From an uncultured archaeon (GTDB taxonomy: Archaea; Aenigmatarchaeota; Aenigmatarchaeia; GW2011-AR5): a DNA stretch of 32,074 nt. The stretch lies in the NCBI GenBank assembly GCA_964456345.1, contig CAYVZO010000002.1:1-32074 (forward strand), written 5' to 3'. The notes under the pieces were generated by a model. The model was not told the DNA's origin, ran no database searches, and saw only the letters and a program-made list of their open reading frames with translations. The translations under genes were made by a program, and so were the position numbers. Positions 14,686 to 28,526 of this stretch are shown here, one piece after another (the stretch's first letter is position 1; each line of letters starts with the position of its first letter).

Positions 14686-14740
14686 TAATATCGAAAGAGC
14701 CTTTAAAAAAGCGTGAAAAAATAACCTACATTGCAGGATG

Positions 14741-14789
14741 GAAATCTTTAAATATGAATAGTTACTTTAAGGTAGTGAAATAGGTGTGG
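14741..14789 (+). promoter_or_regulatory. Promoter/5'UTR module A: GAAATCTTTAAATAT (BRE/TATA) ... GTAGTGAAATAGGTGTGG (SD GGTG)
   Basis: The 15-nt box is identical to 15545-15559, and the downstream 18-nt box nearly matches 15586-15604. GGTG lies 5 nt upstream of the ATG at 14792. Confidence 0.6.
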
Positions 14790-14791
14790 AT

Positions 14792-14860
14792 ATGGGCTAT
14801 TCTGAAAAGGCTGCTGAGAGCAATATGCCAAAAATCTTTTCAAGAAGGTGTGATTCATGA
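14792..14860 (+). CDS. 22-aa leader sORF (MGYSEKAAESNMPKIFSRRCDS), stop overlaps the next start (ATGA)
   Basis: Preceded by an SD (GGTG). Its TGA at 14858-14860 overlaps the ATG at 14857 of the 214-aa ORF. Below the ORF-track length cutoff. Translation not proven. Confidence 0.35.
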   Translation: MGYSEKAAESNMPKIFSRRCDS

Positions 14861-15501
14861 GTTTTTTGTCAAGCCTATTCGGTCCTCCGAACGTGCCTGT
14901 TAAGACTCGCTCTAAAAAACCAGGACAGCGAAAAAAGCCTAGAGTGGTCCGCAGAGTCGTACACGGTCAGGAGTATCCTTTCTACAGGACCAAAAACCTT
15001 GGAAAGGCGTTGGAGCGCTCAGGCATACATCATATCCTGACAGGAATAAGGAACAGTGAATGGGAGAGGTTTAAGGACAACGGCCACAAGATGAGATGGC
15101 ATCCTCACATCATAAACAGCTACAAAATCAATTACGATAATACGCCTGTTCTTTACGTGCCTGGCCAGCGCGGCTATAAACAGCCGAAAGTGCCTGCAGG
15201 CAGAAACAGCTTCCAGCCGTTGGGGAACCTTGTCCATTACGAGTTGAGGCTTCCCAGAGGCGAATTCAGCGTAGCCGGCTTCTTTCCACGGGAGTACCTT
15301 TATCTCGACATCGCACTGGTTCCTGGAAACGAAGAAACAAGGAAAAGGTCAGAAAGGTACGTGTCGTTCAACGTCATTGGCTACAGAGAAAACAACGTGA
15401 CAGGCAACATTGACGCTGCTTATTCTAAGCTTACGCGCGGAATCGAGAAGTCGACGTTAAATAAATACGTAAAAGAGGCGCTCAACTCCATAAGCGCCTA
15501 G
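14857..15501 (+). CDS. Orphan basic protein, 214 aa, N-terminal LFG motif
   Basis: SD GGTG lies 7 nt upstream. N-terminus is MSFLSSLFGPPNVPVKTRSKKPGQRKKPRVVRR. I recognise no family. Confidence 0.6.
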   Translation: MSFLSSLFGPPNVPVKTRSKKPGQRKKPRVVRRVVHGQEYPFYRTKNLGKALERSGIHHILTGIRNSEWERFKDNGHKMRWHPHIINSYKINYDNTPVLYVPGQRGYKQPKVPAGRNSFQPLGNLVHYELRLPRGEFSVAGFFPREYLYLDIALVPGNEETRKRSERYVSFNVIGYRENNVTGNIDAAYSKLTRGIEKSTLNKYVKEALNSISA

Positions 15502-15544
15502 AAAAGGGGTTTAAATACGCCTAAATTAACTACTCTATAGTAAC

Positions 15545-15604
15545 GAAATCTTTAAATATAGTCGGCAGTGCATTACTACCTAGTTGTAGTGAATATAGGT
15601 GTGG
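15545..15604 (+). promoter_or_regulatory. Promoter/5'UTR module B: GAAATCTTTAAATAT ... GTAGTGAATATAGGTGTGG
   Basis: Duplicate of module A with a spacer 10 nt longer. GGTG lies 8 nt upstream of the ATG at 15610. Confidence 0.6.
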
Positions 15605-15609
15605 GTTGT

Positions 15610-15741
15610 ATGAAAAAGAAATATCCAAAAAATGGAATCGGTAAGAGAATCCATTATTGCGGCAGCGGATTCAAAGGCGAGGTTATAAAGGCTCGCGGCA
15701 TAACTTTCTGCACGTTTTGCGGCCACGAGTTCAGGGAGTGA
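15610..15741 (+). CDS. 43-aa zinc-ribbon-like sORF (MKKKYPKNGIGKRIHYCGSGFKGEVIKARGITFCTFCGHEFRE)
   Basis: SD-led. HxC ... CxxC spacing is compatible with a small Zn knuckle pair. The stop directly abuts the next ORF. Below the ORF-track cutoff. Confidence 0.45.
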   Translation: MKKKYPKNGIGKRIHYCGSGFKGEVIKARGITFCTFCGHEFRE

Positions 15742-15747
15742 TTGAAA

Positions 15748-16287
15748 ATGCTCTGTGTAAGAGAAGGTCCGATTTACGAGAGAATGAAAGACCTCAATCT
15801 GTCAGACCTGATAATAGAACTCTTTGGCAATATTGATTCTAGAGGAAGCTCGGCAAAGCCGAACTTCCGCACTTCAACAGACTACAGAGGAGGCTCAACA
15901 GGACATGGTATAGAGTATACAATGCCTTATGACTTTGATATAGGAAGCTACGACCCTCGGACTGGAGAGATACAGGTAAGCAAGTATTTTCCTAATGGCA
16001 GGCCTATTTCTGAAAGGGCTCAGAGATACATATTCGCGCATGAAGACGGCCATAGACGGGGTTATGATGAGATTGACACAGCGCTGTTTGCAGAAAGTGC
16101 AGCTGACCCTGATTTATGGCTCATGGTAATGGGTTACAGGGCAGCTTTTGCCAAGCAAGGCAGGAACTGCAGGGACGCTGAAGTATACAGGGGCATTACA
16201 GAAAGGTACGGAAGAAGCGAAATAGCCCCTCTGCTCAGGGCGATAGACAAGATTGGCGATGAAATAATAGCAGAGGGTAAGAGGTGA
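15748..16287 (+). CDS. Orphan protein with HExxH motif (FAHEDGH), putative small metallopeptidase; N-terminal LFG motif
   Basis: 179 aa from the ATG at 15748 (the ORF track uses the TTG at 15742). Contains ELFGNIDSRG near the N-terminus and RAQRYIFAHEDGHRRGYDEID. GGAG lies upstream. Confidence 0.6.
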   Translation: MLCVREGPIYERMKDLNLSDLIIELFGNIDSRGSSAKPNFRTSTDYRGGSTGHGIEYTMPYDFDIGSYDPRTGEIQVSKYFPNGRPISERAQRYIFAHEDGHRRGYDEIDTALFAESAADPDLWLMVMGYRAAFAKQGRNCRDAEVYRGITERYGRSEIAPLLRAIDKIGDEIIAEGKR

Positions 16288-16292
16288 TTTGG

Positions 16293-17492
16293 ATGGTAGG
16301 CAACACAAAGGAATTGATTTATAATCTTTTCGGGGATAGTCAAAGAATACCTACAAGCGGATTGTTCGGCGGACCGCTTGGTTGCTTTGCCAACGAGATG
16401 GTAGCAACCGGCTCTGGTGCCTACCCAATATCAGAGGGCAGGCCGATGCCGACTTTCGTATACAGGAAGGGCGAGAAAGGCAGCAAGCCTGACACACCTG
16501 GTGCAAAGCCGGGCGATTATTCCGGAGGAAAAGAACCCGGAATGCCGTACATATCAGCAAGGCCTGTTTCAGGTCCTGCAAAAGAGCCGAATACAAAGAA
16601 ATCTAACGGTAATGCTAAGAAAGGGGTGAAAAAAGTGCCAGTAGATTTGGGAAAACCATTCAAAGAAATTGGGAAGAAAATCGGAGACTTTGGAAAACCG
16701 AAGAAAAAGGCTATGCCAGGTCAACCAGAACGGAAATATACCATGCAGAAAGTTAAAGAAGAAATAGACCTGTTAAGAGAGCAGACAGGGAAACTGTCAA
16801 CATCAGAGAAAGAGATTCTATATAGTGGTACCCATTTAAATGAGGAAATAAGGAATAAAACCTATTCATTGGGAAGAGAGATAAAATATCTAAGCGGGGT
16901 TCTCAACGACGACAAAGAAAGGTTTGGCAGAACAGCTAAAGTAGGAAACAAAAAATTTGAATTAACCAAAAAAAATACAAGGAATTCAGCATCTGGTAAA
17001 TATGTTGCTGAAGCGCAAGACGGGGCTGCTGAATTCATACCAACAGCTGAAGAGGAGTATAGAAGCATCCTAAGCAATATGACGACAACAAAAGAAACAA
17101 CCAGTAGAATATTGCAAGAACTTACAGACATGTGGGATGCGGTGACGTTCCAAATGGAACGCTATGCAAAAGCTCAGACAGATATCAGAGATGCTTGGGG
17201 AACCTACGATGAACAGCTAACAAGTCTCTCAGGAATGAAGACACTGGAAGAGATGGGAAAAGAAAGTCCACTCTACAAGAAATTGGAAGAAATTGGAAAA
17301 GACGTATCAGAAGGGAAAGAGCTAGAGAAAGCATATAAAGACCTGTACGAATCTATGGAAACAACTGAAGCATTTCTTGGAGAATATGCATTCAAAGCAC
17401 GCGGATTAATAGACAGAATAGAAAGAATGGAACCAGCTGTTGACAGAAAGTTGAATGACATAAATAGCTATAACATAGAGCAGGCTTCCTAA
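16293..17492 (+). CDS. Orphan protein: LFG N-terminus, Lys/Pro/Gly-rich disordered linker, long coiled-coil C-terminal half
   Basis: About 399 aa from the ATG at 16293, which has GAGGTGA 3 nt upstream. The GTG at 16284 overlaps the previous stop and is an alternative start. ELIYNLFGDSQRIPTSGLFGGPLG is followed by KPGDYSGGKEPG...KKGVKKVP...GKPKKK and then heptad-like E/K/L-rich sequence. Confidence 0.65.
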   Translation: MVGNTKELIYNLFGDSQRIPTSGLFGGPLGCFANEMVATGSGAYPISEGRPMPTFVYRKGEKGSKPDTPGAKPGDYSGGKEPGMPYISARPVSGPAKEPNTKKSNGNAKKGVKKVPVDLGKPFKEIGKKIGDFGKPKKKAMPGQPERKYTMQKVKEEIDLLREQTGKLSTSEKEILYSGTHLNEEIRNKTYSLGREIKYLSGVLNDDKERFGRTAKVGNKKFELTKKNTRNSASGKYVAEAQDGAAEFIPTAEEEYRSILSNMTTTKETTSRILQELTDMWDAVTFQMERYAKAQTDIRDAWGTYDEQLTSLSGMKTLEEMGKESPLYKKLEEIGKDVSEGKELEKAYKDLYESMETTEAFLGEYAFKARGLIDRIERMEPAVDRKLNDINSYNIEQAS

Positions 17493-17494
17493 AA

Positions 17495-17510
17495 TTGTTT
17501 TTTCTTTTTT
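17495..17510 (+). terminator. T-rich terminator (TTGTTTTTTCTTTTTT) after the orphan operon
   Basis: Begins 3 nt after the TAA at 17490-17492. Oligo-T runs of 6 each. Confidence 0.5.
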
Positions 17511-17543
17511 CCTCTTTAATTCTAAGCCTTTTTCGAACAAATG

Positions 17544-17632
17544 GACGCACAGAGGTGCGTCAGTTCGTTAACGGCTTAAGCGAAAATGTAGCTTACACTA
17601 TTAATGGTATAGACTATCCGCGAAGCGGATAG
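17544..17632 (+). other. Cluster of four perfect palindromes/hairpins (candidate sRNA or operator array)
   Basis: GACGCAC-AGAG-GTGCGTC (17544-17561), CGTTAACG (17566-17573), GCTTAAGC (17574-17581), and CTATCCGC-GAA-GCGGATAG (17614-17632) followed by TCTTTTT. Confidence 0.4.
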
Positions 17633-17667
17633 GGTATCTTTTTATTTATCCGATATGTATTATATTC

Positions 17668-18315
17668 ATGGCTTTGGAAGACATAGGTATATTGTTGTTC
17701 GTGGATATCCTGAAGATGACTGAATATCCGGGCTCGCCTTTCACAGGCAATATCATAAATGACCTGGTAATGTTCCTTCTCGTGCCTACCATATTCATCA
17801 TAGTGGTCATCTACACGCTTGTGGGGAGATTGACTCCAAACGGCAAGATAAAATTATTGCTCAGTGTGGGAATATTCCTGTTCATAGTGTTCGGAGGGTA
17901 TTACCCGATGTTTGCCTACCTCGCAGGTCCGTACTTCCTGTTCCTGATAATATTCCTAGGCCTTATAATGTTCTTCTTCGGCCACTTCGGCCTTCGGAGA
18001 GGCGAAACTCAGCACATGCCAGGAAGGGCATTGATGGCTGCCACAGACAACTCGGCAAAAGCCTCTGGAGAAGCACTGCACCATCTGCCAAGCAGGCTTC
18101 AGGGCCTTGTTGTTGCGCCCAGCCTGAACATGAGAGACAGGGCAGAGCTGGAAAGGGCTGCCCGTGGGCTAGACCGAGAAATAGAAGACTTACAGAAAGC
18201 TTATGATAGAATGGTGGAAACCGGTGCTCACGGTACTGGAGACGTTGCATTAAGGCTTCAGGAAAAACGAAATCAGAGAAGAATGATAGAAGCAGCTCTT
18301 ACAGGTACTAAATAG
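17668..18315 (+). CDS. Membrane protein P1 (3-4 N-terminal TM helices plus cytoplasmic coiled-coil tail), distant paralogue of P2-P4
   Basis: 215 aa. FLLVPTIFIIVVIYTLV resembles the FLLPWLxTFAVxYGLL core of P3/P4. TTTTTATTTAT lies about 20-30 nt upstream of the ATG, suggesting a leaderless or short-leader mRNA. Confidence 0.65.
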   Translation: MALEDIGILLFVDILKMTEYPGSPFTGNIINDLVMFLLVPTIFIIVVIYTLVGRLTPNGKIKLLLSVGIFLFIVFGGYYPMFAYLAGPYFLFLIIFLGLIMFFFGHFGLRRGETQHMPGRALMAATDNSAKASGEALHHLPSRLQGLVVAPSLNMRDRAELERAARGLDREIEDLQKAYDRMVETGAHGTGDVALRLQEKRNQRRMIEAALTGTK

Positions 18316-18323
18316 TGGTTACA

Positions 18324-18782
18324 ATGCTCGAATTATCTTCTGAAATGGTTGCTTTGTTAACCTCATTTCTGTTCGTCTTTGCTATAATATATGCGCTGCT
18401 TATATACACGAACATATTCACGCAATCGAGGCGCTCGGCAGTGATTATATCCCTGGTTATAGCGTTCTTCTCTGTTGTCTACGGCCCCATGGTAAGCTTA
18501 CTGCAGAACATACTGCCTATAGCAAGCCTGTTGCTCGTATTCCTCTTTTTCATAGTGTTCATCAAGAAGCTTATAGAAGGAGGCGGGATAAAAGACTCAG
18601 CGCCCATAACAGTTTCGCTGGCAATACTTCTGGTTGTTCTCGCTTCTACGTGGGGTAGTCTTGGGCTCTATCTCCCTTATCCGCTAACGCCTGATACGGT
18701 TTTATGGATAATAGGGATATTCGTTATATTGCTGATATTTCTCGGCGTATACTACCATAATCCGAAGGGGGAACAAAAATAA
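18324..18782 (+). CDS. Membrane protein P2 (multi-pass), paralogue family
   Basis: 152 aa from the ATG at 18324 (the track uses the GTG at 18315, which overlaps the P1 stop). LLTSFLFVFAIIYALLIYTNIF...VIISLVIAFF aligns with P3/P4. Confidence 0.65.
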   Translation: MLELSSEMVALLTSFLFVFAIIYALLIYTNIFTQSRRSAVIISLVIAFFSVVYGPMVSLLQNILPIASLLLVFLFFIVFIKKLIEGGGIKDSAPITVSLAILLVVLASTWGSLGLYLPYPLTPDTVLWIIGIFVILLIFLGVYYHNPKGEQK

Positions 18783-18827
18783 TTAACTATAAAAGCATGG
18801 GATGATAAATATTGAAAGAGGATATGT

Positions 18828-19343
18828 ATGGCTGACATCGTAACAACGCTGATGACGCAGTTAAGCTCCATAGGGTTCTTTGAGTTCTTGCTGCCCTGGC
18901 TTTTCACGTTCGCAGTTGTATACGGCCTGCTGATGAAGGTCGGGGTCTTTGGAGATGTCAGCAAAAAGGTCTCTCCAGTAATCGCAATAGTAATAGCATT
19001 CTTCATAACACCTTATGCAGGCCCCTGGCTTGCAAGCTATTTCTCGACGCTGTCTACGGAAATAGCAATCGTGCTTGCAGGCATACTGACTTTGGTGCTT
19101 TTCGCAGGTATGATAGGCTTCAAAGCGGATGAGCTCAAGAGCAAGAAATGGGGCCTTCCCATAGTGGTCGTGATGGCTGCAATCGTGTTCTTCTTTGCCC
19201 TTGGCGGCGAGTTTACTGCAGTAACAATCGGTGAGAACACGATAATGACCGTGGTGTTCATCGCGTTCCTGATAATAGCTGTATGGTTCATAACAAGCAA
19301 CGGAAAGAAGGAAGAGAAGACACAAACAGGTGGAGCTTCATAA
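18828..19343 (+). CDS. Membrane protein P3 (about 5 TM), paralogue family
   Basis: 171 aa. MADIVTTLMTQLSSIGFFEFLLPWLFTFAVVYGLLMK. SD GAGGA lies upstream. Confidence 0.7.
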   Translation: MADIVTTLMTQLSSIGFFEFLLPWLFTFAVVYGLLMKVGVFGDVSKKVSPVIAIVIAFFITPYAGPWLASYFSTLSTEIAIVLAGILTLVLFAGMIGFKADELKSKKWGLPIVVVMAAIVFFFALGGEFTAVTIGENTIMTVVFIAFLIIAVWFITSNGKKEEKTQTGGAS

Positions 19344-19359
19344 TGAACGGGTAATTCTG

Positions 19360-19833
19360 ATGGCAAGTCCTTTTGACAGCCTGGTTCTGATGCTGAAAGA
19401 TATTGGATTTTTCGGATATTTCCTGCCCTGGCTCCTGACGTTTGCTGTCATCTACGGACTGCTTGTAAAGTCCAAAGTTCTGGGAGAGGACCAGAAGATA
19501 ATCGGGGTTGTTTCCCTTGCGATTTCCTTCTTCGTGATAGGATTCGGCAGCATCGTCCTGGGCGAGTTCTTCGCATCATTGTTCGGGATGGGAATTGTCG
19601 TGTTGTCAGTCATCCTGGTAATGGTTCTTTTCGTGGCAATGGCAGGCGGCGACGTGAGCAAGCTTGCAGAGAACAAGCAGGTAATAGCCCTGCTCGTAGG
19701 CGTTGGCATAGTAGTCATAATAGCCCTTATGAGCAGTTTCGGCTTGGTTGTCAGCGAGGAATGGCTCACCCTTCTTGCAGTGCTGGTGATGCTTGGAATA
19801 GCTTTTGCATTTATAACGAGCAATAACAAATAG
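19360..19833 (+). CDS. Membrane protein P4 (about 5 TM), close paralogue of P3
   Basis: 157 aa from the ATG at 19360. MASPFDSLVLMLKDIGFFGYFLPWLLTFAVIYGLLVK aligns residue-for-residue with the P3 N-terminus. The track's GTG start at 19330 is unlikely. Confidence 0.7.
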   Translation: MASPFDSLVLMLKDIGFFGYFLPWLLTFAVIYGLLVKSKVLGEDQKIIGVVSLAISFFVIGFGSIVLGEFFASLFGMGIVVLSVILVMVLFVAMAGGDVSKLAENKQVIALLVGVGIVVIIALMSSFGLVVSEEWLTLLAVLVMLGIAFAFITSNNK

Positions 19834-19847
19834 GAAGCATGTCTTTA

Positions 19848-20489
19848 TCAGGCTTGCCTGTTCTTCATCTCGTGTATCATCGACGAGAGCGATTCTATGT
19901 TCCTTGTTAATGAAGGCAGGAACTGCTTGAACGCTTTCTCTAGGCCTCCGACACGGGCTTCCAAATCTTCCATCTGATTGATGACGTCGTTGACCCTGCT
20001 ATCCTCTACAGGAGTTTTGATTTCTTCTGCAGGTTTTGCGTTCTTGACTTCAGATTTCAGGGTGTTGAAATCCTCTTCCAGCTTATCCATCTGCTCCTTT
20101 ATTTTCTGCCATTTTTCCTCAACAACGCCTTCAACAAGCTCTTCCACTATAATTTCCGGGGAGATGTCCTTTGCATCAGCTTCATTCATTTCCGGCATCT
20201 CTGTTTCGGAGAAAACGTCCTGTGTAGGCGTCTCTTCCTGGAACGTCTGCGTGAAGCTGCTTTCCAGGCTGCCTCTTTGCGGCTCTGCTACAATAGGCTC
20301 TTTCTTCTGGGTATCCTGGCTAACGCCCTGCTTGACCGACCTCAGCATGGCAGCCTCTATCTCATCGTAAGCATATCCCTTGGATTTCAGCTCCCTGATT
20401 ATGTCCCTGTCGCTGAGGCCGTCTCTCTGCATTGCCTGGATCTCATCCAGAGGTATTGCCTTCTTTGTCTTCTTTTTCCTGAAAAACAT
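19848..20489 (-). CDS. Coiled-coil protein with N-terminal UBA-like helical hairpin
   Basis: 213 aa. IPLDEIQAMQRDGLSDRDIIRELKSKGYAYDEIEAAM, then an acidic linker, then a heptad-rich C-terminus. No family recognised. Confidence 0.6.
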   Translation of the reverse strand: MFFRKKKTKKAIPLDEIQAMQRDGLSDRDIIRELKSKGYAYDEIEAAMLRSVKQGVSQDTQKKEPIVAEPQRGSLESSFTQTFQEETPTQDVFSETEMPEMNEADAKDISPEIIVEELVEGVVEEKWQKIKEQMDKLEEDFNTLKSEVKNAKPAEEIKTPVEDSRVNDVINQMEDLEARVGGLEKAFKQFLPSLTRNIESLSSMIHEMKNRQA

Positions 20490-20550
20490 TTCACCATCTC
20501 TTAGACAATGTGTTCTAGTTTTCTATTTATTTAATTGTTTTTCCTTGTAT

Positions 20551-20928
20551 TTAACCTTTTTTCGAAAGTATCTCTTCCAGCTCTTCCTTTGTCACGAATT
20601 CCTGCCTTATGGGGCTGAGCAGGTCGAACATCTTTTCTATCTCCTTCAGGTCCTGTTTTTTCGCGAATTTGTTTATCTGGTTGTTTATCTTTTCCAGGTT
20701 GTTCTTGAGCTTTGATATGTCGTTCGTGGCTTCGTTGACGATAACATCCAGGTCAGAGAACTTCTCGCTGATTTTGTCTGTCCTTGAAAGGTTTGCAGCC
20801 TCAAGCGAGCTCGTCTTTTCCTCGAGAATGGATATCCTTTGCTCCAAGTCGCGGAGTCTCCTGCTCTCCTCGTTCGTCCTCCTGACCAATTCCTGGAGAA
20901 TCATCTGAAACTTGGAATCCTCTGGCAT
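20551..20928 (-). CDS. Small all-coiled-coil protein
   Basis: 125 aa, E/K/L/N-rich heptads throughout (RLRDLEQRISILEEKTSSLEAAN...). Transcribed divergently from the ATPase gene across a 107-nt A/T-rich spacer. Confidence 0.6.
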   Translation of the reverse strand: MPEDSKFQMILQELVRRTNEESRRLRDLEQRISILEEKTSSLEAANLSRTDKISEKFSDLDVIVNEATNDISKLKNNLEKINNQINKFAKKQDLKEIEKMFDLLSPIRQEFVTKEELEEILSKKG

Positions 20929-21035
20929 CTAAGACCATCTCGTTTGCTAATTAAAGTTGTCTTTTCCTGTATTTTAAGTTTTAGTTTAATCGAAAAAGGC
21001 TTAAAACAATTAGAAAAAATAGTTAAGTAGTTGCT

Positions 21036-23261
21036 ATGGTCTGCGAATATGAGTATGACGAAGAGAAGCAGTGCATAAGGATAAACTGCCTGGGCTGCAT
21101 ATACGGATGTTCTATAGAAGACAGCGATGTATGCATGGCAACCACGATTGACAAGCTGATAGAGTTAAAGCGCCTGGTCCGTGTAGTTTTGGCAGAGAAC
21201 AGGGAGCATGAATACGACTTCGGGGACATAAAGCTTCTTCTGGAAATAGCAAACTCGATTGAAAGGATATCAAGGGAGGGAATAGTCGCGCTGAGGAATA
21301 TAGTGATATCCGAGTGCGAGGAAGAAGCGCCGGAACGCTACGCATTCCTGAGGAAACTGCTTAACGATCTCAGGTACGATCCTATAGAGGCTTACAAGAA
21401 CCTGTTGCGGGAGATACGCCACTCACGGACGCGGAGCGAAAAAGAGGACGAGATACACAGGAAGTGCAATGCTCATTATATAGAAAACACGCTTCTTCCG
21501 ATAAAGAGTATGCTCGACAGATGCAGGTTGATACAGCTTTCTAAAGAGCGGCTGACAGAGCACAAGGACCGCTCTCTTTACAGGAAGATATTCCACCCCA
21601 GCATAAGGCCAAACTTCATGTATACCAGGTATGTTTCGCTTCCGCCGTCGAACGCAGAGCTCATAGAGAAATATGAGTTAGGAGGCACGGATGTGGAGAT
21701 ATACCAGGTGCCCAACAACGTGAGAAAGCTGTACTACCTGATACCGCCGGAATTCAAGCTCAAGGAAAATGAATACACTCTTTTAGATACTGCACGCCAG
21801 TATCTGGGCCGGCACGAGCCGGGAGAAACGGAACTGGAGCATCCTGAGCGTGTAAGGGAGAACATATTCCGTATAGGCCTGGACATGCTGAGGGATATCG
21901 CAAGGGAGCAGAAGATAGACGTAACGGAAGAAAAGCTGGAGCACCTTGCAAACATCCTGGTAAGGTATACGATAGGTCTCGGGGTACTCGAATTGTTCCT
22001 GGAAGACGAGAACATACAGGACGTGGAGATAAACTCTCCTGTTGGCCAGCTTCCTGTATATGTTTTCCATAATAACCACCTTGAATGTGAAACGAATATC
22101 GTGCCAAGCAGGGAAGACGCGGAGTCATGGGCAACACGATTCCGTTTATCAAGCGGCCGCCCTTTAGATGAAGCGAATCCTGTGATGGATACAGAGCTTA
22201 TCGTGCCTGGCGGTCGCGCAAGGGTAGCAGCGATCACTAGGTCACTCTCGCCAGACGGCCTCGGCTTTGCGTTCCGTCGCCACAGGTTCAGGCCCTGGAC
22301 ATTCCCCCTGTTCATAAAAAACAGGATGATGGATTCTCTTTCTGCGGCAGTGTTATGGTTCACCATAGACGGTGCAAGAACGATGCTTATAGGAGGAACA
22401 AGAAGCTCAGGCAAGACAGCCTTCCTAGGTTCCTGCATGGTGCAGATAATGCCCAAGCTGCGAGTAATAACTGTCGAAGATACGCTGGAGCTGCCTGTCG
22501 AGCAATTGCGGGAAATTGGTTATAATATAGAGCGCCTGAAGTCGCGTTCCGTAATAACCCGCGTGGAGACGGAGCTTCCTGCTGATGAGGCGCTGCGCAC
22601 CGCGCTGCGTCTGGGCGATTCCTGCCTGATAATAGGCGAGGTACGCAGCAGGGAAGCGCTGGCTTTGTATGAGGCAATGCGCATTGGCGCGCTCGCCAAC
22701 GTAGTTGCAGGCACTATTCACGGCGAATCTGCATACGGAATCTTCGACCGTGTCGTTAACGACCTTACAGTACCTACAACAAGCTTCAAAGCCACGGACC
22801 TGATAGTCATATGCAATATGTTAAGGTCTCCGGACGGGCTGAACTCTTTCCGCCGCGTCGTCGAGATGACTGAGGTCCGTAAGCACTGGAAAAGCGACCC
22901 AATGGATGAGAATGGCTTCGTGAATCTGTTTGAATATTCAGCCCGCGAGGATTCGCTCAAGCCAAGCAAAACTCTTCTGATGGGTGAATCAGAAATCTTA
23001 AACAACATAGCAGAGCGCGTCCGCGAATGGAAAGGCCGCTGGGACGCTGTGTGGGGGAACATAGAACTCAGGGCGAACGTGTTCGACACGCTTGTAAAAT
23101 ATGCAACTTCAAAGAACAAGCCAGAGCTTCTGGAAGCTCCTTTCGTAATGGAGTCGAATTCTAAATTCCACTTAATAAGCAGTGCGGTTAAGGAAGAGCT
23201 GGGCGCTCTAGACAGCAAGGTAATATACGGCAAGTGGCACGAGTGGCTCAGAAACTTCTAG
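21036..23261 (+). CDS. Type IV filament/secretion ATPase (PilB/FlaI/VirB11 superfamily) with extended Cys-rich N-terminus
   Basis: 741 aa. Walker A GGTRSSGKTA, Asp box ITVEDTLEL, Walker B CLIIGEVRSREA, His box GTIHGES, and an upstream LELFLEDENIQDVEINSP motif typical of FlaI/GspE N-domain ends. The N-terminus is MVCEYEYDEEKQCIRINCLGCIYGCSIEDSDVC. Confidence 0.9.
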   Translation: MVCEYEYDEEKQCIRINCLGCIYGCSIEDSDVCMATTIDKLIELKRLVRVVLAENREHEYDFGDIKLLLEIANSIERISREGIVALRNIVISECEEEAPERYAFLRKLLNDLRYDPIEAYKNLLREIRHSRTRSEKEDEIHRKCNAHYIENTLLPIKSMLDRCRLIQLSKERLTEHKDRSLYRKIFHPSIRPNFMYTRYVSLPPSNAELIEKYELGGTDVEIYQVPNNVRKLYYLIPPEFKLKENEYTLLDTARQYLGRHEPGETELEHPERVRENIFRIGLDMLRDIAREQKIDVTEEKLEHLANILVRYTIGLGVLELFLEDENIQDVEINSPVGQLPVYVFHNNHLECETNIVPSREDAESWATRFRLSSGRPLDEANPVMDTELIVPGGRARVAAITRSLSPDGLGFAFRRHRFRPWTFPLFIKNRMMDSLSAAVLWFTIDGARTMLIGGTRSSGKTAFLGSCMVQIMPKLRVITVEDTLELPVEQLREIGYNIERLKSRSVITRVETELPADEALRTALRLGDSCLIIGEVRSREALALYEAMRIGALANVVAGTIHGESAYGIFDRVVNDLTVPTTSFKATDLIVICNMLRSPDGLNSFRRVVEMTEVRKHWKSDPMDENGFVNLFEYSAREDSLKPSKTLLMGESEILNNIAERVREWKGRWDAVWGNIELRANVFDTLVKYATSKNKPELLEAPFVMESNSKFHLISSAVKEELGALDSKVIYGKWHEWLRNF

Positions 23262-23310
23262 CCAACCACGGATTTTTATAGCAACTGTTACAAATATAAT
23301 TCAGGTAGTT

Positions 23311-25356
23311 ATGCCTCTGGAAAGAAGGAAGAAAGCGCTGGAGATACCGAGCTCCCGCGAGAGGTTGGTCAGGGAGAATCTCAGGGAGCTCAAGAAGCTT
23401 GAATCGCGCGAGTACAAAATATACAAGGAAGAAGAAAAGCTGGCAACGCTGCCGCGTACTCTCTACGAGAAGGCGTGCAGGATCTCGTACAGAATAATAA
23501 AAGTCACGCCTGACAAGAAGACAGGCAAGATGCTGAAGGACGCGATAGAATTCTCACATCTCAGGGTTACGCCTAGCCAGGTTGCTTCTTTCACCATAGT
23601 ATTCGCGATGCTTGTCTGCTTCCCGACACTTATACTGACGGCAACAAGGATTTTCCTTGCCTCGCCTGACCCTGTTACAGGAGATATAGTGCCCGGCTTC
23701 GGCCTGGATGCCGGCTACAGCATGCTCATATTCGTTCTTGCGATCCCGTTCACTTACTACATATACGTCTATCCTGTGCACACGAAGAAGAAGTACGAGA
23801 TGGACGCAGGCTCGGAAATCGTAACCATGATAATGTACATGGCAATGTACATGAGGAATACACCCAACCTAGAGGGCGCACTTAGGTTCGCTTCAGAGAA
23901 CATTTCAGGCCCGCTTGGTTTCGAGCTCAGGAAACTCCTCTGGGATGTCGAAATCGGTAACTATCTTACGGTAAACGAGGCCCTTCTTGCTTACACGAAG
24001 AAATGGTCGCGAAACAGGGAATTCATCGAGGCGGTTGAGATAATAATAACCTCGCTCAATCAGAGCGGTGAAAGAAGGGTTACGATGCTTAACGAAGCAA
24101 TAAACATCATACTCAGGGGCAACATGGAGAATGCGAAGCACTTCAACCAGAGCCTCAGAACGCCTGTTACTGTCGTGCACGCCATGGGCATAGTGCTCCC
24201 TGTACTCGGCCTTGTGCTGTTTCCCATAGTAGCGTTCTTCCTCAACGTAGACATAATGGCGCTCTTCATAGGATATGACATATTGCTTCCTGTGTTCCTT
24301 TTCTTCATAATAAAGAACATACTGGAGAAAAGGCCCGCCACCTTTTCCAAGATAGACATATCTGACAATCCCAACATACCCAAGGAAGGAAGATTCAGAT
24401 TCAGGAAGAGGGACATAAAAGCATGGCCGATTGGAATCCTCTCAAGCATTGCAGTGTTTTCAATCGCTTTTCTGATATACATGGCAGAGGGCCAGAACGG
24501 GGTACTCTCGCCTGTGCTCTTTGTATTCTCCGTTGCGATAGGGCTTTCAACCTACTTCATTCTGGTCTCTTCACCTTTCCTAAAGGTAAGGTCAACTACA
24601 AGGGACATTGAGAGCGAGTTTGCAGAAGCGCTGTTCCAGATGGGAGAGCAGATATCCAGCGGTGTGCCCATAGAACTCTCCATGGAACATTCAGTAAGGA
24701 GAATAGGAAACCTCAAGATAAAGGAATTCTTCCAGAAAGCGCTGAATAATATAAGCCAGCTCGGATTGACATTCGAGCAGGCGTTCTTTGACAAGAAATA
24801 CGGGGCAGTGAACCTCTATCCATCAAGGCTTATAAAGTCTGTTATGCGTGCTGTCTCGGAGTCCTCGCGCAGGGGAGTGAAAACAGCCTCTATGGCCATG
24901 CTTACCATATCCAGATACCTGAAAGGGATTCACCGCACGCAGGAAGATGTCAAGGACGAGCTCAGCGAAACGCTGAGCTCGCTGAGGTTCCAGGCGTTCT
25001 TTCTCTCACCGATGATATCAGGCGTCGTCGTCACGCTTGGTATAGTAATACTCACCATACTTGAAGGCCTGGGCGCATCAACTGCAGGGTTCTCTTTCAT
25101 GGAGCTGCCGCTTCTGCTGAATGAAATAAATGTCACCTCTTTCCAGTTCGTCTTCGTGGTTGCTGTATATCTGTTCGAGACCTGCTTGATACTCTCTTTG
25201 TTTATAAACGGCATAGACAACGGAGAGGACCCGATAGAACTTAAAAGTTTGGCTGGATATTCACTGGTAATAGGATTTGTAGTCTTTATGACAACGCTGT
25301 TCATAACGTTCATGATATTCATGCCTTTGCTGACGCCGTTGTTGGGACTCGTATAA
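23311..25356 (+). CDS. Polytopic platform protein of the PilC/FlaJ/TadC (T2SS-F) type
   Basis: 681 aa, directly downstream of the ATPase. Alternating soluble helical segments and TM clusters (at least 8 helices by eye), the usual archaeal FlaJ/PilC architecture. Assignment rests on architecture and synteny rather than on a strict motif. Confidence 0.7.
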   Translation: MPLERRKKALEIPSSRERLVRENLRELKKLESREYKIYKEEEKLATLPRTLYEKACRISYRIIKVTPDKKTGKMLKDAIEFSHLRVTPSQVASFTIVFAMLVCFPTLILTATRIFLASPDPVTGDIVPGFGLDAGYSMLIFVLAIPFTYYIYVYPVHTKKKYEMDAGSEIVTMIMYMAMYMRNTPNLEGALRFASENISGPLGFELRKLLWDVEIGNYLTVNEALLAYTKKWSRNREFIEAVEIIITSLNQSGERRVTMLNEAINIILRGNMENAKHFNQSLRTPVTVVHAMGIVLPVLGLVLFPIVAFFLNVDIMALFIGYDILLPVFLFFIIKNILEKRPATFSKIDISDNPNIPKEGRFRFRKRDIKAWPIGILSSIAVFSIAFLIYMAEGQNGVLSPVLFVFSVAIGLSTYFILVSSPFLKVRSTTRDIESEFAEALFQMGEQISSGVPIELSMEHSVRRIGNLKIKEFFQKALNNISQLGLTFEQAFFDKKYGAVNLYPSRLIKSVMRAVSESSRRGVKTASMAMLTISRYLKGIHRTQEDVKDELSETLSSLRFQAFFLSPMISGVVVTLGIVILTILEGLGASTAGFSFMELPLLLNEINVTSFQFVFVVAVYLFETCLILSLFINGIDNGEDPIELKSLAGYSLVIGFVVFMTTLFITFMIFMPLLTPLLGLV

Positions 25357-25423
25357 GTGGTGTTTATGAGATGCCATTACGAAACAGAATTAACGCTATA
25401 GTATCAACTTGGGTGCTTTGAGA

Positions 25424-26566
25424 ATGAAAATAGCCATGTTCACGGATACTTACGACCCCCAGGTAAACGGCGTTGTGAAATCCATAAAGGAATCCTCGAA
25501 TGAGCTGAGGAAATGCCATCACAAGGTATACATCTTCTCGCCTGAGTCGCCGCAATTCATAGCAATAAGCAGGTTCGTAAAATCCATGAAATCGGTGCCT
25601 TTCATAAAATATCCGGGCTACAGGATAGCGATACCGTATTCCGTGTTCATAGATCCTGTGTTCAGAAAGACGAAATTCGATGTGGTGCACGTGCACACGC
25701 CTTTCTCGCTCGGCGTTGCAGGGATGGTACTTGCGAAATACCACAAGATACCGCTTGTGGGTACTTTCCATACACTCCTGCCTGAGTACGTACACTATTA
25801 CATAGAGCGCCTGCGAAGGTTCGGCTATGCACGTCATCTCACAGGCAAGGCGATGTGGAAATACTGCTCATGGTTCTACAACAGGTGCGACTGTATAATA
25901 GCGCCTTCAGAGGAGATAAAGGAACTGTTGAAAAAGAAGGGCTTCAAAAAGGAGATAAAAGTCGTGCCCACAGGAGTGAGGATAAAAAGGGCTGACGAAA
26001 CGAAGGCAGCACTGAAAAAGAAGTATGGCTTCAACAGCAACAAGGTAATACTCCATATAGGCAGGATAACAAAGGAGAAGAACATCATGATAATACTGGA
26101 TGCTCTCAAGAAGCTTCTCAAAAAGGACAAGAAAATAAAGTTCGTGATTGCGTCGGACGGTCCCCACAGGGCTGAGCTGGAGAACTACACGGAAAGGCTG
26201 GGGCTGAAGGAAAACGTGGTCTTCACCGGCTATATATCGCCGAAAAGGCTTTATGAACTCTACCGAATGTCAGACGTATTTGTAATGGCTTCAAAGACAG
26301 AGACCCAGGGCCTTGTACTTATGGAAGCAGTAACCAACTACGTGCCGATAGTTGTGATGAACTATCCTGTCATATCCGACTTCGTGAAAAAGAATGGCGT
26401 GGGATTCGTTGCAAACAAGAACAACTTCTCCGAGATGGTTGGCAAAGCCCTGCACAACAGGAAAGCCAGAAAGAACTTCATGAACAACGGGAAGAAACTG
26501 CTGCATGAATACAGCATAAATGCGTGCGCGAAGAAACTCGCAAAGATATACTCCGAATTGTATTAA
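25424..26566 (+). CDS. Glycosyltransferase family 4 (GT-B, group 1)
   Basis: About 380 aa from the ATG at 25424 (MKIAMFTDTYDPQVNGV). C-terminal GRITKEKN...SKTETQGLVLMEA, an E-x7-E-type motif. Confidence 0.85.
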   Translation: MKIAMFTDTYDPQVNGVVKSIKESSNELRKCHHKVYIFSPESPQFIAISRFVKSMKSVPFIKYPGYRIAIPYSVFIDPVFRKTKFDVVHVHTPFSLGVAGMVLAKYHKIPLVGTFHTLLPEYVHYYIERLRRFGYARHLTGKAMWKYCSWFYNRCDCIIAPSEEIKELLKKKGFKKEIKVVPTGVRIKRADETKAALKKKYGFNSNKVILHIGRITKEKNIMIILDALKKLLKKDKKIKFVIASDGPHRAELENYTERLGLKENVVFTGYISPKRLYELYRMSDVFVMASKTETQGLVLMEAVTNYVPIVVMNYPVISDFVKKNGVGFVANKNNFSEMVGKALHNRKARKNFMNNGKKLLHEYSINACAKKLAKIYSELY

Positions 26567-28256: not shown

Positions 28257-28526
28257 ATGGGTATGGTTGCTGTCACGTTTAAAGTCATGCCTGGTTCTGC
28301 TGATGCGGACCTTGATGCCATTAAGAAACAGGTCAAGGAAAACCTGTCACGGATAAAGAATATCAAGCTGGAACAGGTAGAGGAGAAGCCTGTTGCGTTC
28401 GGCCTAAAGTGCCTGGAAGTCCTTGTTACTATGCCTGATACCGGTGGCACGGACAAAATAGAGGAAGAGATAGCCAACGTGCCTGGCATCGAGTCTGTAA
28501 ATACCGAAGACGTGACATTAATATGA
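28257..28526 (+). CDS. ef1b: Translation elongation factor aEF-1 beta
   Basis: 89 aa. MGMVAVTFKVMP...VEEKPVAFGLKCLEVLVTMPD..GGTD.IEE.I..V.GIESV is characteristic in both length and sequence. Confidence 0.9.
   Translation: MGMVAVTFKVMPGSADADLDAIKKQVKENLSRIKNIKLEQVEEKPVAFGLKCLEVLVTMPDTGGTDKIEEEIANVPGIESVNTEDVTLI

What the first reader, a model, noticed from the sequence alone, without database searches (positions are those of the whole stretch)
14741..25356. Candidate uncharacterised envelope/secretion locus built around an orphan PilB/FlaI-type ATPase and PilC/FlaJ-type platform
The ATPase (21036-23261) and platform protein (23311-25356) are the only recognisable type-IV-filament components in the window.
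- No ORF in the window has a class III (prepilin-like) signal peptide, meaning a short basic N-terminus, G/A cleavage site and hydrophobic helix.
- There is no prepilin peptidase (PibD/FlaK), no FlaH/KaiC-like protein and no archaellin.
- The pair is instead flanked by four tandem multi-pass membrane paralogues, two divergently transcribed coiled-coil proteins, and two promoter-duplicated operons of orphan proteins that share an N-terminal motif.
- A glycosylation/methylation cassette follows.

This gene content does not match the archaellum, Aap/Ups/adhesive pili or Ced-type systems as I know them. It could be a lineage-specific surface-filament, secretion or host-contact apparatus.
Basis: partly seen in the sequence, partly recalled or inferred. 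Interest (0 to 1): 0.78.

Follow-up and report, generated by a model that had tools for sequence, protein, structure and literature searches.

The report
DPANN type IV pilus locus, pilins unlinked
This is the motor and membrane platform of an archaeal type IV pilus from an Aenigmatarchaeota-like (DPANN) genome whose pilin genes lie elsewhere, and it sits in a gene arrangement, conserved across many related genomes, with two coiled-coil proteins and four small membrane proteins that nobody has characterised.

Summary
The ATPase (21036-23261) and platform (23311-25356) are real. They are the only recognisable type IV filament parts in the window. No prepilin, prepilin peptidase, FlaH or archaellin is present.

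The pair is not an orphan of unknown purpose.
- In 13 related loci, mostly Aenigmatarchaeota/DPANN MAGs, the orthologous pair (47-71% identity) is usually followed by arrays of genes with class III signal peptides (MKG|hydrophobic).
- In a tree of the ATPases, the window and L013, which both lack adjacent pilins, are sisters nested inside pilin-linked loci.
- So this is a type IV pilus core whose pilin cluster became unlinked. Glycosyltransferases follow the platform instead.

What is new is the accessory content.
- The coiled-coil pair E/F sits divergently upstream of the ATPase in most loci.
- The P1-P4 membrane module abuts E/F in 10 loci, including distant ones.
- Both are large families with no Pfam, NCBIfam or PDB relative.
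- Each module also occurs alone, so the link is preferential, not obligate.

B, C and D are fast-evolving ORFans with a truly duplicated promoter. Their tie to the system is unproven.

Verdict: a new variant of a known kind, of moderate interest.

The parts
21036..23261 (+). PilB/GspE/FlaI-family secretion ATPase, 741 aa. It has a variable N-terminal Cys-rich region (Cys at residues 3, 13, 18, 21, 25, 33) and intact Walker A, Walker B and His box.
   Evidence: Pfam T2SSE 1.5e-13. NCBIfam FlaI 132.7 bits against a cutoff of 550, and BasE and TadA also far below cutoff. PDB afGspE 6.5e-34. Motif positions. Orthologues at 47-71% identity in 14 loci; the tree of 13 ATPases, window included, is.
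23311..25356 (+). PilC/TadC/FlaJ-type polytopic platform protein, 681 aa, about 10 hydrophobic segments.
   Evidence: Pfam T2SSF 3.1e-10, two stretches. Transmembrane segments. Orthologues at 31-57% identity directly after the ATPase in L001-L004, L006, L013, L017 and L018, and one intervening gene or a short gap away in L012, L015 and L016. No solved relative by sequence.
20551..20928 (-). F: 125-aa cytoplasmic coiled-coil protein, divergent from the ATPase. Conserved motifs are ELVRRxNExxRRLRxLEQR and LKEIExMxDLLSPIKxxFVTKEE.
   Evidence: No transmembrane segment. Only coiled-coil noise in Pfam/NCBIfam. Homologues upstream of the ATPase in L001, L002, L005, L007, L012, L013, L015-L019. Alignment A5.
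19848..20489 (-). E: 213-aa cytoplasmic protein with three regions. These are an N-terminal three-helix bundle, a disordered acidic linker, and a helical hairpin ending in the near-invariant ARVGGLEKAFKQFLPSLTRNIESLS.
   Evidence: 237 clusters at E<=1e-3, of which the 120 best are listed at 39-53% identity and about 215 aa; none carries a consistent Pfam domain. Alignment A3. AF2 gives pLDDT above 90 for residues 14-58 and a hairpin at 111-212. Foldseek PDB finds nothing with E<1. Contexts.
17668..18315 (+). P1: 215-aa membrane protein with 3 transmembrane segments and a roughly 100-residue charged helical C-terminal tail. It is the first gene of the P1-P4 unit.
   Evidence: Transmembrane segments. 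Homologues at 30-58% identity at the same position in L008, L010, L013-L016, L018. No Pfam/NCBIfam hit above noise.
18315..18782 (+). P2: 155-aa protein with 5 transmembrane segments, a divergent member of the P family.
   Evidence: P2 against P3 gives 6e-7 over the N-terminal 58 residues. Homologues in L002, L008, L010, L013-L016, L018.
18828..19343 (+). P3: 171-aa protein with 5 transmembrane segments. It carries the family hallmark LGF[YF]xFLLPWLFTFAVVYGLL at the start of the first transmembrane segment.
   Evidence: 32 close homologues, none annotated. Alignment A2. The profile search finds 2347 representative clusters at E<=1e-3 and 848 at E<=1e-10. AF2 pLDDT 71, all-helical. Foldseek PDB finds no hit with E<1.
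19330..19833 (+). P4: 5 transmembrane segments, paralogue of P3. The family alignment favours the ATG at 19360 (MASPFDSL...) as the true start.
   Evidence: P3 against P4: 36% identity, 3e-23. Alignment A2.
20929..21035 (.). 107-bp divergent intergenic region between F and the ATPase, presumably a bidirectional promoter.
   Evidence: Sequence. Similarly short divergent spacers occur in L002 and L018.
17632..17667 (+). P1's own promoter region, with a TATA-like ATCTTTTTATTT about 20-30 nt before the ATG.
   Evidence: The same element lies at the same distance upstream of P1 in L002, L013, L014, L015 and L016.
25409..26566 (+). GT4 glycosyltransferase, 53 nt downstream of the platform on the same strand. 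It occupies the place where relatives have the pilin array.
   Evidence: Pfam Glycos_transf_1 and Glyco_transf_4. A 41%-identical GT4 directly follows the platform in L013.
14857..15501 (+). B: 214-aa orphan protein with N-terminal MSFLSSLFGPP followed by a basic stretch. Neighbour; membership of the system is unproven.
   Evidence: No Pfam, NCBIfam or PHROG hit. No tblastn match in any fetched locus.
15610..15741 (+). 43-aa zinc-ribbon ORF (CxxG...CxxC) that leads the second duplicated-promoter unit.
   Evidence: Weak A2L_zn_ribbon hit, E=0.0044.
15742..16287 (+). C: orphan protein of about 170-180 aa with an HExxH motif (FAHEDGHRRG). Possibly a small zincin.
   Evidence: Only a self-hit among 5.8 billion proteins. 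HExxH-bearing small proteins occupy the equivalent position in L008 (157 aa) and L010 (195 aa), but without detectable homology.
16284..17492 (+). D: 402-aa orphan with three regions. These are an N-terminal LIYNLFG motif, a Gly/Pro/Lys-rich low-complexity region, and a helical C-terminal half.
   Evidence: Only sub-threshold coiled-coil hits. No match in any related locus.
14719..14800 (+). Promoter copy 1, upstream of a 22-codon uORF (14793-14861) whose stop overlaps the ATG of B.
15523..15612 (+). Promoter copy 2, upstream of the zinc-ribbon ORF, C and D.

Best explanation
The locus is the assembly core of an archaeal type IV pilus of a locus type conserved in Aenigmatarchaeota and allied DPANN archaea.

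Proposed mechanism:
- A hexameric PilB/FlaI-like ATPase (21036-23261) drives a PilC/TadC-like platform (23311-25356). Together they extract prepilins from the membrane and polymerise them into a surface filament.
- In this lineage the pilin genes and the prepilin peptidase are encoded elsewhere in the genome. A glycosyltransferase cassette sits where relatives have the pilin array.
- The cytoplasmic coiled-coil proteins E and F share a bidirectional promoter region with the ATPase. I infer that they form a cytoplasmic scaffold or regulator on the ATPase, analogous in role to FlaX, FlaC/D/E or the arCOG07564 coiled-coil protein.
- P1-P4 is a separately transcribed membrane module that I infer forms a hetero-oligomeric inner-membrane sub-complex working with the machine. 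P1's cytoplasmic helical tail is a plausible contact for E/F.

Shown: the identity and intactness of the ATPase and platform, orthology to pilin-linked pairs, and conserved synteny of E/F and P1-P4.

Inferred: pilus assembly in this organism, pilins encoded elsewhere, and any physical or functional role of E, F and P1-P4.

B, C and D are treated as fast-evolving neighbours, not as parts.
For: Identity of the core:
- T2SSE and T2SSF domains, intact catalytic motifs, and afGspE/FlaI/CpaF as the closest solved relatives.

Orthologous pairs sit next to pilins. A strict class III scan (M-x(0-12)-[KR][GA] followed by a 20-residue hydrophobic stretch, at most 1-2 transmembrane segments) gave:
- none credible in the window;
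- 7 clustered downstream of the platform in L002;
- 7 downstream plus 1 upstream in L003;
- 3 flanking the pair in L004;
- 2 in L012, including a canonical MKG|ISPLIAAVLLIAFTV between ATPase and platform;
- 3 in L016.
L015, L016, L014, L012 and L018 also carry arrays of small proteins with an N-terminal transmembrane helix.

Derived state:
- In the NJ tree of 13 ATPases, the window and L013 (both without adjacent pilins, both with GT4 after the platform) are sisters inside the pilin-linked L012/L015/L016 clade.

Synteny of the accessories:
- F lies divergently upstream of the ATPase in L001, L002, L005, L007, L013, L015, L017, L018 and L019, with E beside it in all but the truncated L007. E and F are close by in L012 and L016.
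- The P module abuts E/F in the window, L001 (partial), L002, L013, L014, L015, L016, L018 and L019, and lies three genes from E in L017.
- These include loci anchored independently on distant P-family members, whose ATPases are only 52-60% identical and whose flanks differ.
- P1 keeps its own conserved promoter in six genomes.

Precedent in the literature (Makarova et al. 2016, PMC4858521):
- pilin-less ATPase/tadC operons;
- a variable N-terminal Cys-rich domain on subclade 4F ATPases;
- stand-alone pilin genes;
- nanoarchaeal ATPases without identified cognate pilins;
- an associated cytoplasmic coiled-coil protein.
DPANN T4P islands with 'dark matter' pilins are noted in Makarova et al. 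2019, PMC6393860.
Against: - No pilin or A24 peptidase is seen in 32 kb, and the rest of the genome is not available. Pilus assembly in this organism is therefore inferred.
- The modules are separable. P1-P4 occur without E/F or the ATPase within reach in L008/L009 and L010/L011. The ATPase/platform occur without E/F/P in L003, L004 and L006. In L014, E/F, P1-P4 and pilins are present with no ATPase within 10 kb.
- Part of the synteny among the closer Aenigmatarchaeota genomes could be inherited gene order, because GatD/GatE are also conserved nearby.
- No homology or structural evidence assigns any activity to E, F or P1-P4.
- The pilin-like genes of the relatives have no Pfam support. They rest on signal-peptide pattern alone.
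Confidence: 0.72

Rival explanations
1. The ATPase/platform pair has been repurposed, and together with P1-P4 and E/F it forms a non-pilus apparatus for secretion, membrane remodelling or host contact. This apparatus needs no pilins. B, C and D may be its cargo.
For: - No pilins in the window or within 20 kb in the sister locus L013.
- P1-P4 and E/F are conserved, uncharacterised and syntenic.
- Makarova et al. 2016 accept that some pilin-less archaeal ATPase systems (subclade 4D) may have changed function.
- B, C and D share an N-terminal hydrophobic-x-x-LFG motif. The same motif appears in equivalent-position genes of L013 and L014.
Against: - The same P/E/F/ATPase/platform arrangement in L002, L016 and L018 carries pilin or pilin-like arrays, and L015 carries an array of small N-terminal-helix proteins that the strict scan did not score. 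The accessory genes therefore coexist with pilins rather than replacing them.
- The window's ATPase is nested in the pilin-linked clade.
- C is an ORFan, and B/C/D have no counterparts by sequence elsewhere. They are not conserved cargo.
Confidence: 0.12
2. E/F and P1-P4 have nothing to do with the pilus. They are independent, widely conserved DPANN housekeeping genes, for example envelope or division-related. They sit beside the pil genes because of inherited gene order.
For: - The P module stands alone in L008 and L010.
- The ATPase/platform stand alone in L003, L004 and L006.
- GatD/GatE synteny shows this chromosomal region is conservative in Aenigmatarchaeota.
- P1-P4 has its own promoter.
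Against: - The adjacency survives in L017, L018 and L019. There the ATPase is only 52-60% identical, E is 25-31% identical, and the outer flanks are unrelated to the window's.
- F and the ATPase share a short divergent spacer, 107 bp in the window and a few tens of bp in L002 and L018.
- In loci anchored on P-family members alone, 3 of 5 have the ATPase within 10 kb. My rough estimate, not a computed value, is that a random gene in a ~1 Mb genome with one to three such ATPases would lie that close only a few per cent of the time.
Confidence: 0.16

Closest known systems
Archaeal type IV pili of subclade 4F in the classification of Makarova, Koonin and Albers 2016 (PMC4858521)
   Same: - PilB-like ATPase with an extra, variable N-terminal Cys-rich domain.
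- A TadC-like platform next to it.
- An associated cytoplasmic coiled-coil protein (arCOG07564).
- Major pilins usually encoded by stand-alone genes.
- ATPases of this clade reported in nanoarchaea without identifiable cognate pilins.
   Different: - Phylogenetic placement in 4F was not tested here.
- Homology of E/F to arCOG07564 is untested.
- Two coiled-coil proteins are present instead of one.
- A four-gene polytopic membrane module (P1-P4) is not part of the described 4F layout.
- The N-terminal Cys motif is lost in several orthologues (L013, L015, L017).
Archaellum (FlaI/FlaJ with FlaH, FlaF/G, archaellins, and FlaX or FlaC/D/E)
   Same: - Homologous ATPase and platform.
- Cytoplasmic coiled-coil accessory proteins that could play a FlaX- or FlaC/D/E-like scaffold role.
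   Different: - NCBIfam FlaI scores 132.7 bits against a cutoff of 550.
- No FlaH/KaiC, FlaF/G or archaellin in the window.
- Only stray sub-threshold FlaC_arch matches, in 3 of 27 members of the E family.
Haloferax/euryarchaeal PilB-PilC operons without linked pilins
   Same: An ATPase/TadC pair stands apart from the pilin genes and is presumed to use pilins encoded elsewhere.
   Different: Those operons are not accompanied by the E/F pair or the P1-P4 module.
DPANN type IV pili 'dark matter' islands (Makarova, Wolf and Koonin 2019, PMC6393860, Fig. 2A)
   Same: An ATPase and TadC in DPANN genomes, surrounded by unannotated genes with signal peptides that are interpreted as divergent pilins. 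The relatives L002, L003, L015, L016 and L018 look like this.
   Different: The text of that paper interprets the unknown neighbours as pilins. It does not describe cytoplasmic coiled-coil or polytopic membrane accessory families. The window itself lacks the pilin part.

Membership tests
Type IV filament (T4P/TFF) machinery | PilB/GspE/FlaI-family ATPase with Walker A, Walker B/Asp box and His box | tested here: met
   Pfam T2SSE 1.5e-13. Motifs at residues 454, 527 and 558. PDB afGspE, FlaI and CpaF.
Type IV filament (T4P/TFF) machinery | Polytopic PilC/TadC/FlaJ platform with T2SSF domains, encoded next to the ATPase | tested here: met
   Pfam T2SSF 3.1e-10, two stretches. About 10 hydrophobic segments. 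The gene starts 50 nt after the ATPase stop.
Type IV filament (T4P/TFF) machinery | Substrate pilins with class III signal peptides | tested here: inconclusive
   None in the 32-kb window. They are abundant next to the orthologous pair in L002, L003, L004, L012 and L016. The rest of this genome is not available.
Type IV filament (T4P/TFF) machinery | A24-family prepilin peptidase (PibD/FlaK/EppA) | not testable with these tools
   Absent from the window. The unannotated 6-TM protein at 28523-29239 has a CTP-transferase/dolichol-kinase-like GDPVAFIVGTRYGKRK signature (my own reading of the motif) and no GxGD. The P family has no conserved acidic residue.
Archaellum | FlaI equivalog score, plus FlaH, FlaF/G and archaellins in the locus | tested here: not met
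   NCBIfam FlaI 132.7 bits against a cutoff of 550. None of the other components found.
Sulfolobus bindosome (Bas) and bacterial Tad (CpaF/TadA) | Equivalog-level match of the ATPase | tested here: not met
   BasE 65.7 bits against a cutoff of 1000. TadA-family TIGR03819 107.3 bits against 373.
Ced/Ted DNA import system | CedB HerA/VirB4-like ATPase with CedA membrane proteins (definition from my own knowledge of the family) | tested here: not met
   No HerA/VirB4-type domain in any window ORF. The ATPase is T2SSE-type.
Makarova 2016 T4P subclade 4F | Extra N-terminal Cys-rich domain on the ATPase | tested here: met
   Six Cys in the first 33 residues. C3/C18/C21/C33 are shared by most orthologues but lost in L013, L015 and L017, which fits 'variable'.
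Makarova 2016 T4P subclade 4F | Phylogenetic placement of the ATPase within subclade 4F, and homology of the coiled-coil partner to arCOG07564 | not testable with these tools
Type IV pilins (as a reading of P2-P4) | Short basic leader, G/A at -1, a single N-terminal hydrophobic helix, then a globular domain | tested here: not met
   P2-P4 have a conserved G-F junction (LG|F[YF]xFLLPW). However, the 15-residue leader is uncharged or acidic and helical, -2 is hydrophobic, and the proteins have 5 transmembrane helices with no globular domain.

The most novel reading that the evidence does not exclude
E/F and P1-P4 together form a previously unrecognised sub-complex of the type IV pilus machine, widespread in DPANN. 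It would consist of a cytoplasmic coiled-coil scaffold plus a four-subunit inner-membrane module. It would play the role that PilM/N/O or FlaX play elsewhere and be tuned to the host-attached lifestyle of these ultrasmall archaea.

A bolder extension: the fast-evolving genes just upstream of P1 are lineage-specific clients or effectors handled by this module. In the window these are B, C and D, with their N-terminal hydrophobic-x-x-LFG tag and, in C, an HExxH motif.
Probability: 0.3. Interest if true: 0.65.

Novelty: new variant of a known kind. Interest (0 to 1): 0.45.

Why it matters
DPANN archaea live attached to host cells, and type IV pili are prime candidates for that attachment, yet no DPANN pilus machine has been dissected. 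This work makes three points.
- The apparently 'orphan' ATPase/platform pairs in these genomes belong to ordinary pilus systems whose pilin clusters move around. That guards against over-interpreting them.
- It defines two large protein families with no annotation. The E family has at least 237 clusters. The P family has about 2300 representative clusters.
- These families, together with F, are the most consistently linked partners of the pilus core in this group. They give concrete, testable candidates for the missing accessory parts of an archaeal pilus motor.

Tried and rejected
- **Pfam, NCBIfam and PHROGs** on B, C, D, P1-P4, E and F gave only sub-threshold or coiled-coil noise.
- **AF2 plus Foldseek (PDB) for P3.** pLDDT was 71 with 5-6 helices, and the best hit had E=1.9. 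No fold assignment.
- **AF2 plus Foldseek for E.** The N-terminal three-helix bundle is confident, but the best hits (UBA, Pex14-N, RecX) have E>1. I do not use them.
- **P2-P4 as cryptic prepilins.** The conserved G|F junction is tempting. I rejected the idea because of the uncharged leader, the five transmembrane helices and the lack of a globular domain.
- **The P family as the missing prepilin peptidase.** Rejected, because no conserved Asp or GxGD is present.
- **The 6-TM protein at 28523-29239 as the peptidase.** Rejected on its CTP-transferase-like motif.
- **Homologues of C.** None exist in the 5.8-billion-protein set. B and D gave no tblastn match in any of 19 loci.
- **Homology among the 'pre-P1' genes of different genomes.** Only L008_240, L015_135 and L016_136 are related to one another. 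None is related to B, C or D.
- **The inverted repeat 17520-17541 / 20985-21006** (upstream of P1, and in the F/ATPase spacer) as a shared operator. It is not conserved in other loci and, by my rough estimate, is near chance expectation.
- **Exact look-up of the window's ATPase** in public assemblies found nothing on record.
- **Pfam on the relatives' pilin-like genes** gave no hits. Their assignment rests on the signal-peptide pattern and clustering.
- **Literature searches** found no description of E/F or P1-P4.


Full report
**What the window is**

The 32-kb window is archaeal. It carries GatE (9792-11561) and GatD (12170-13477), identified by Pfam. The closest relatives of its genes are metagenome-assembled genomes labelled Candidatus Aenigmatarchaeota/Aenigmarchaeota, that is, DPANN archaea. 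No identical protein is on record for the ATPase. The best ATPase identity to any fetched genome is 71%, so this organism has no close sequenced relative.

**Checking the observation**

- The 741-aa product of 21036-23261 matches Pfam T2SSE (1.5e-13).
  - It has Walker A (GTRSSGKT, residue 454), Walker B/Asp box (GDSCLIIGEVR, 527) and His box (AGTIHG, 558).
  - Its nearest solved relatives are Archaeoglobus GspE 2OAP (6.5e-34), FlaI (3e-19) and CpaF.
  - It falls far below the NCBIfam cutoffs for FlaI (132.7 against 550), BasE and TadA.
- The 681-aa product of 23311-25356 matches T2SSF in two stretches and has about ten hydrophobic segments.
- Pfam/NCBIfam scans of all other sizeable ORFs found no prepilin peptidase, FlaH/KaiC, archaellin or pilin family.
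- My class III signal-peptide scans covered all ORFs and alternative starts. They found nothing credible, and no intergenic small ORF has a transmembrane segment.
- P3 and P4 are clear paralogues (36% identity, 3e-23).
  - P2 is related to P3 only over its N-terminal 58 residues (6e-7).
  - P1 is not detectably similar to P3. It is built differently, with three transmembrane segments plus a charged helical tail.
- E and F are soluble and helical.
- The promoter duplication is real. The 15-mer GAAATCTTTAAATAT occurs exactly twice in the window, at 14741 and 15545. Each copy is followed at similar spacing by GTAGTGAA..TAGGTGTGG and an ATG.

**Is the ATPase/platform pair an orphan?**

No. I fetched loci around relatives of the ATPase and listed their genes. 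In L002, L003 and L004 the pair is followed by runs of genes, and in L004 also preceded. Their products start with a short basic leader, K/R-G, and a roughly 20-residue hydrophobic helix. Examples are MKRKG|MILPYFFLIVMIIVL, MKG|SLSTAVTAGLIIL and MKLKG|ISLPIEMMVIIAIAVL.

A strict scan gave these counts:

| Locus | Class III-like genes |
|---|---|
| window | none credible |
| L002 | 7, all downstream of the platform |
| L003 | 7 in the downstream array, plus 1 upstream |
| L004 | 3 |
| L012 | 2, one a textbook MKG\|ISPLIAAVLLIAFTV between ATPase and platform |
| L016 | 3 |

L015, L014, L012 and L018 also carry arrays of small proteins with an N-terminal helix at the same place. These genes have no Pfam match, which is usual for archaeal pilins.

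A neighbour-joining tree of 13 ATPases puts the window and L013 together. These are the two loci with no adjacent pilins and with a GT4 glycosyltransferase right after the platform. They sit inside the clade formed by the pilin-linked L012, L015 and L016. Loss of linkage to the pilins is therefore a derived, local rearrangement. It is not the mark of a different machine.

**Are the neighbours conserved?**

*E family.* E belongs to a family of 237 clusters at E<=1e-3. The 120 best listed are 39-53% identical and about 215 aa long, and all come from DPANN-type MAGs.
- Its architecture is sharply conserved.
- AF2 predicts an N-terminal three-helix bundle (pLDDT above 90), a disordered acidic linker, and a helical hairpin ending in ARVGGLEKAFKQFLPSLTRNIESLS.

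*F.* F has conserved N- and C-terminal motifs across 12 loci.

*P family.* P3 has only 32 close relatives. A profile of the family nevertheless finds 2347 representative clusters at E<=1e-3 and 848 at E<=1e-10.
- All are unnamed. They include members labelled Nanohaloarchaea and one labelled Thorarchaeota.
- The hallmark is LGF[YF]xFLLPWLFTFAVVYGLL at the start of the first transmembrane segment.

*Gene order.* Contexts show a recurrent super-locus: [2-3 fast-evolving small genes] - P1..P4 - E/F - ATPase - platform - [pilin array].
- In Aenigmatarchaeota, GatD/GatE lie a few kb to the side.
- L013 reproduces the window almost gene for gene, including the PLD-like gene and the GT4 after the platform.
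- L015 and L016 add the pilin arrays.
- Loci anchored on distant P-family members, independently of the ATPase, show the same order. These are L017, L018 and L019, with ATPase identities of 56%, 60% and 52%. Their outer flanks are unrelated to the window's.
- P1 keeps its own TATA-like element (ATCTTTTTATTT) about 20-30 nt before the start codon in six genomes, so P1-P4 is a separate transcription unit.

*Separability.* The modules can be found apart.
- P1-P4 stand alone in L008/L009 and L010/L011.
- The ATPase/platform stand without E/F/P in L003, L004 and L006.
- L014 has P1-P4, E/F and pilins but no ATPase within 10 kb.

The linkage is strong and preferential, but not obligate.

**What B, C and D are**

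They give no hit in Pfam, NCBIfam or PHROGs. They have no counterpart by tblastn in any of 19 loci. C has no homologue at all among 5.8 billion proteins.

Genes at the equivalent position in other genomes are equally idiosyncratic. Only L008_240, L015_135 and L016_136 are related to each other.

Two recurring small features are worth recording.
- An N-terminal hydrophobic-x-x-LFG motif occurs in B, C and D. It also occurs in L014_216 (MTDRNLFG) and L013_47 (VGRLFGQQ).
- An HExxH motif occurs in C (FAHEDGHRRG), in L008_157 and in L010_195.

I regard these as leads, not evidence of membership.

**Mechanism**

The best-supported reading has four parts.
- The ATPase and platform assemble a type IV pilus from prepilins encoded elsewhere. 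This follows from homology, intact motifs and orthology to pilin-linked pairs.
- The GT4/GT2/methyltransferase cassette may serve glycosylation of surface proteins. So may the probable polyprenol/dolichol-kinase-like 6-TM protein at 28523-29239, whose motif is GDPVAFIVGTRYGKRK (the family assignment is my own reading of the motif). This is inference from position only.
- E and F share a 107-bp divergent spacer with the ATPase and are soluble coiled-coil proteins. I infer a cytoplasmic scaffold or regulatory role on the ATPase.
- P1-P4 are inferred to form a hetero-oligomeric membrane module. P1's cytoplasmic tail is a possible bridge to E/F.

None of the accessory roles is demonstrated.

**Comparison with what is known**

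Makarova, Koonin and Albers 2016 (PMC4858521) already describe several relevant features:
- archaeal ATPase/tadC operons duplicated without pilins;
- major pilins as stand-alone genes;
- subclade 4F ATPases with a variable N-terminal Cys-rich domain;
- a 4F-specific cytoplasmic coiled-coil protein (arCOG07564);
- nanoarchaeal ATPases of that clade with no identifiable pilins.

The window's ATPase has six Cys in its first 33 residues. The C3/C18/C21/C33 pattern is shared by most orthologues and lost in some. The resemblance to 4F is therefore good. I could not test phylogenetic placement or homology of E/F to arCOG07564.

Makarova et al. 2019 (PMC6393860) note DPANN T4P islands whose unknown genes are taken to be divergent pilins. 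I found no description of the E, F or P families in three literature searches.

The archaellum, bindosome, Tad and Ced systems are excluded as memberships on tested features.

**Verdict**

The finding is a real, conserved locus. Its core is ordinary: a type IV pilus motor and platform whose pilins are unlinked in this lineage. Its accessory content appears undescribed: the E/F coiled-coil pair and the P1-P4 membrane module, both large unannotated DPANN families.

I rate it a new variant of a known kind, with interest 0.45. It remains worth following, because it supplies specific candidates for the unknown accessory parts of DPANN pilus machines.

Noticed in passing
window 13513-14685 (-): A PLD-like protein with two PLDc_2 domains, an N-terminal signal-like segment and a C-terminal transmembrane anchor. 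A 43%-identical homologue lies near the same locus in L013.
   Followed up: partly
window 28523-29239 (+): A 238-aa protein with 6 transmembrane segments and no Pfam or NCBIfam hit even at E<=1. It carries GDPVAFIVGTRYGKRKIVGEKTLEG, which I read as a CTP-transferase/dolichol-kinase-type signature. That would fit the adjacent glycosylation cassette.
   Followed up: partly
window 29218-30744 (-): A radical SAM protein with the HMPTM N-terminal zinc ribbon (PF23545, 4.5e-20). From my own knowledge this family is tied to methanopterin-type cofactor methylation. It is unexpected in a reduced DPANN genome.
   Followed up: no
window 14793-14861 and 15610-15741 (+): Each duplicated promoter is followed at once by a small ORF. 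The first is a 22-codon ORF whose TGA overlaps the ATG of B. The second is a 43-aa zinc-ribbon ORF ending just before C. The duplication seems to include the 5' end of a leader gene that has decayed in copy 1.
   Followed up: partly
window 15742-16287; L008 8456-8929; L010 2169-2756: Small proteins just upstream of the P1-P4 module in three genomes carry an HExxH motif (FAHEDGHRRG, AAHEAGHRL, MHEILH). They show no detectable homology to each other. They may be fast-evolving zincins.
   Followed up: partly
window 14857-16330; L013 18261-18404; L014 13100-13750: An N-terminal hydrophobic-x-x-LFG motif recurs in B, C and D and in equivalent-position genes of other genomes. It is often followed by a basic or proline-rich stretch. 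Its meaning is unknown.
   Followed up: partly
window 17520-17541 and 20985-21006: A 22-nt inverted repeat, 86% complementary. One arm lies upstream of P1 and the other in the F/ATPase spacer. It is not conserved in related loci and may be chance.
   Followed up: yes
L014 (ENA ERZ27247683 k141_392360), whole 20.6-kb locus: E/F, P1-P4 and a pilin array are together, but no ATPase or platform lies within 10 kb. In that genome the motor genes, not the pilins, have moved.
   Followed up: partly
L004 2442-4907: The ATPase ORF is 821 aa. The tblastn match is split (query residues 1-147 at 2442-2909 and 144-741 at 3096-4901), implying an insertion of about 60 residues after the N-terminal region. A 74-aa ORF sits between the ATPase and the platform.
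   Followed up: no
L013-L016, between GatD and the genes upstream of P1: VapBC- or MazE/PIN-type toxin-antitoxin pairs recur at the same relative position in several genomes. The window has none there.
   Followed up: no
L018 (JGI 3300033150 Ga0366835_1016140; NCBI MHA1286671.1): A contig labelled Candidatus Thorarchaeota carries the complete DPANN-type arrangement: P1-P4, E, F, ATPase at 60% identity, platform, and small pilin-like genes. This suggests either mis-binning or transfer.
   Followed up: no
window 11610-12173 (+): A bacterial-PH-domain (bPH_2) protein is inserted between GatE and GatD.
   Followed up: no
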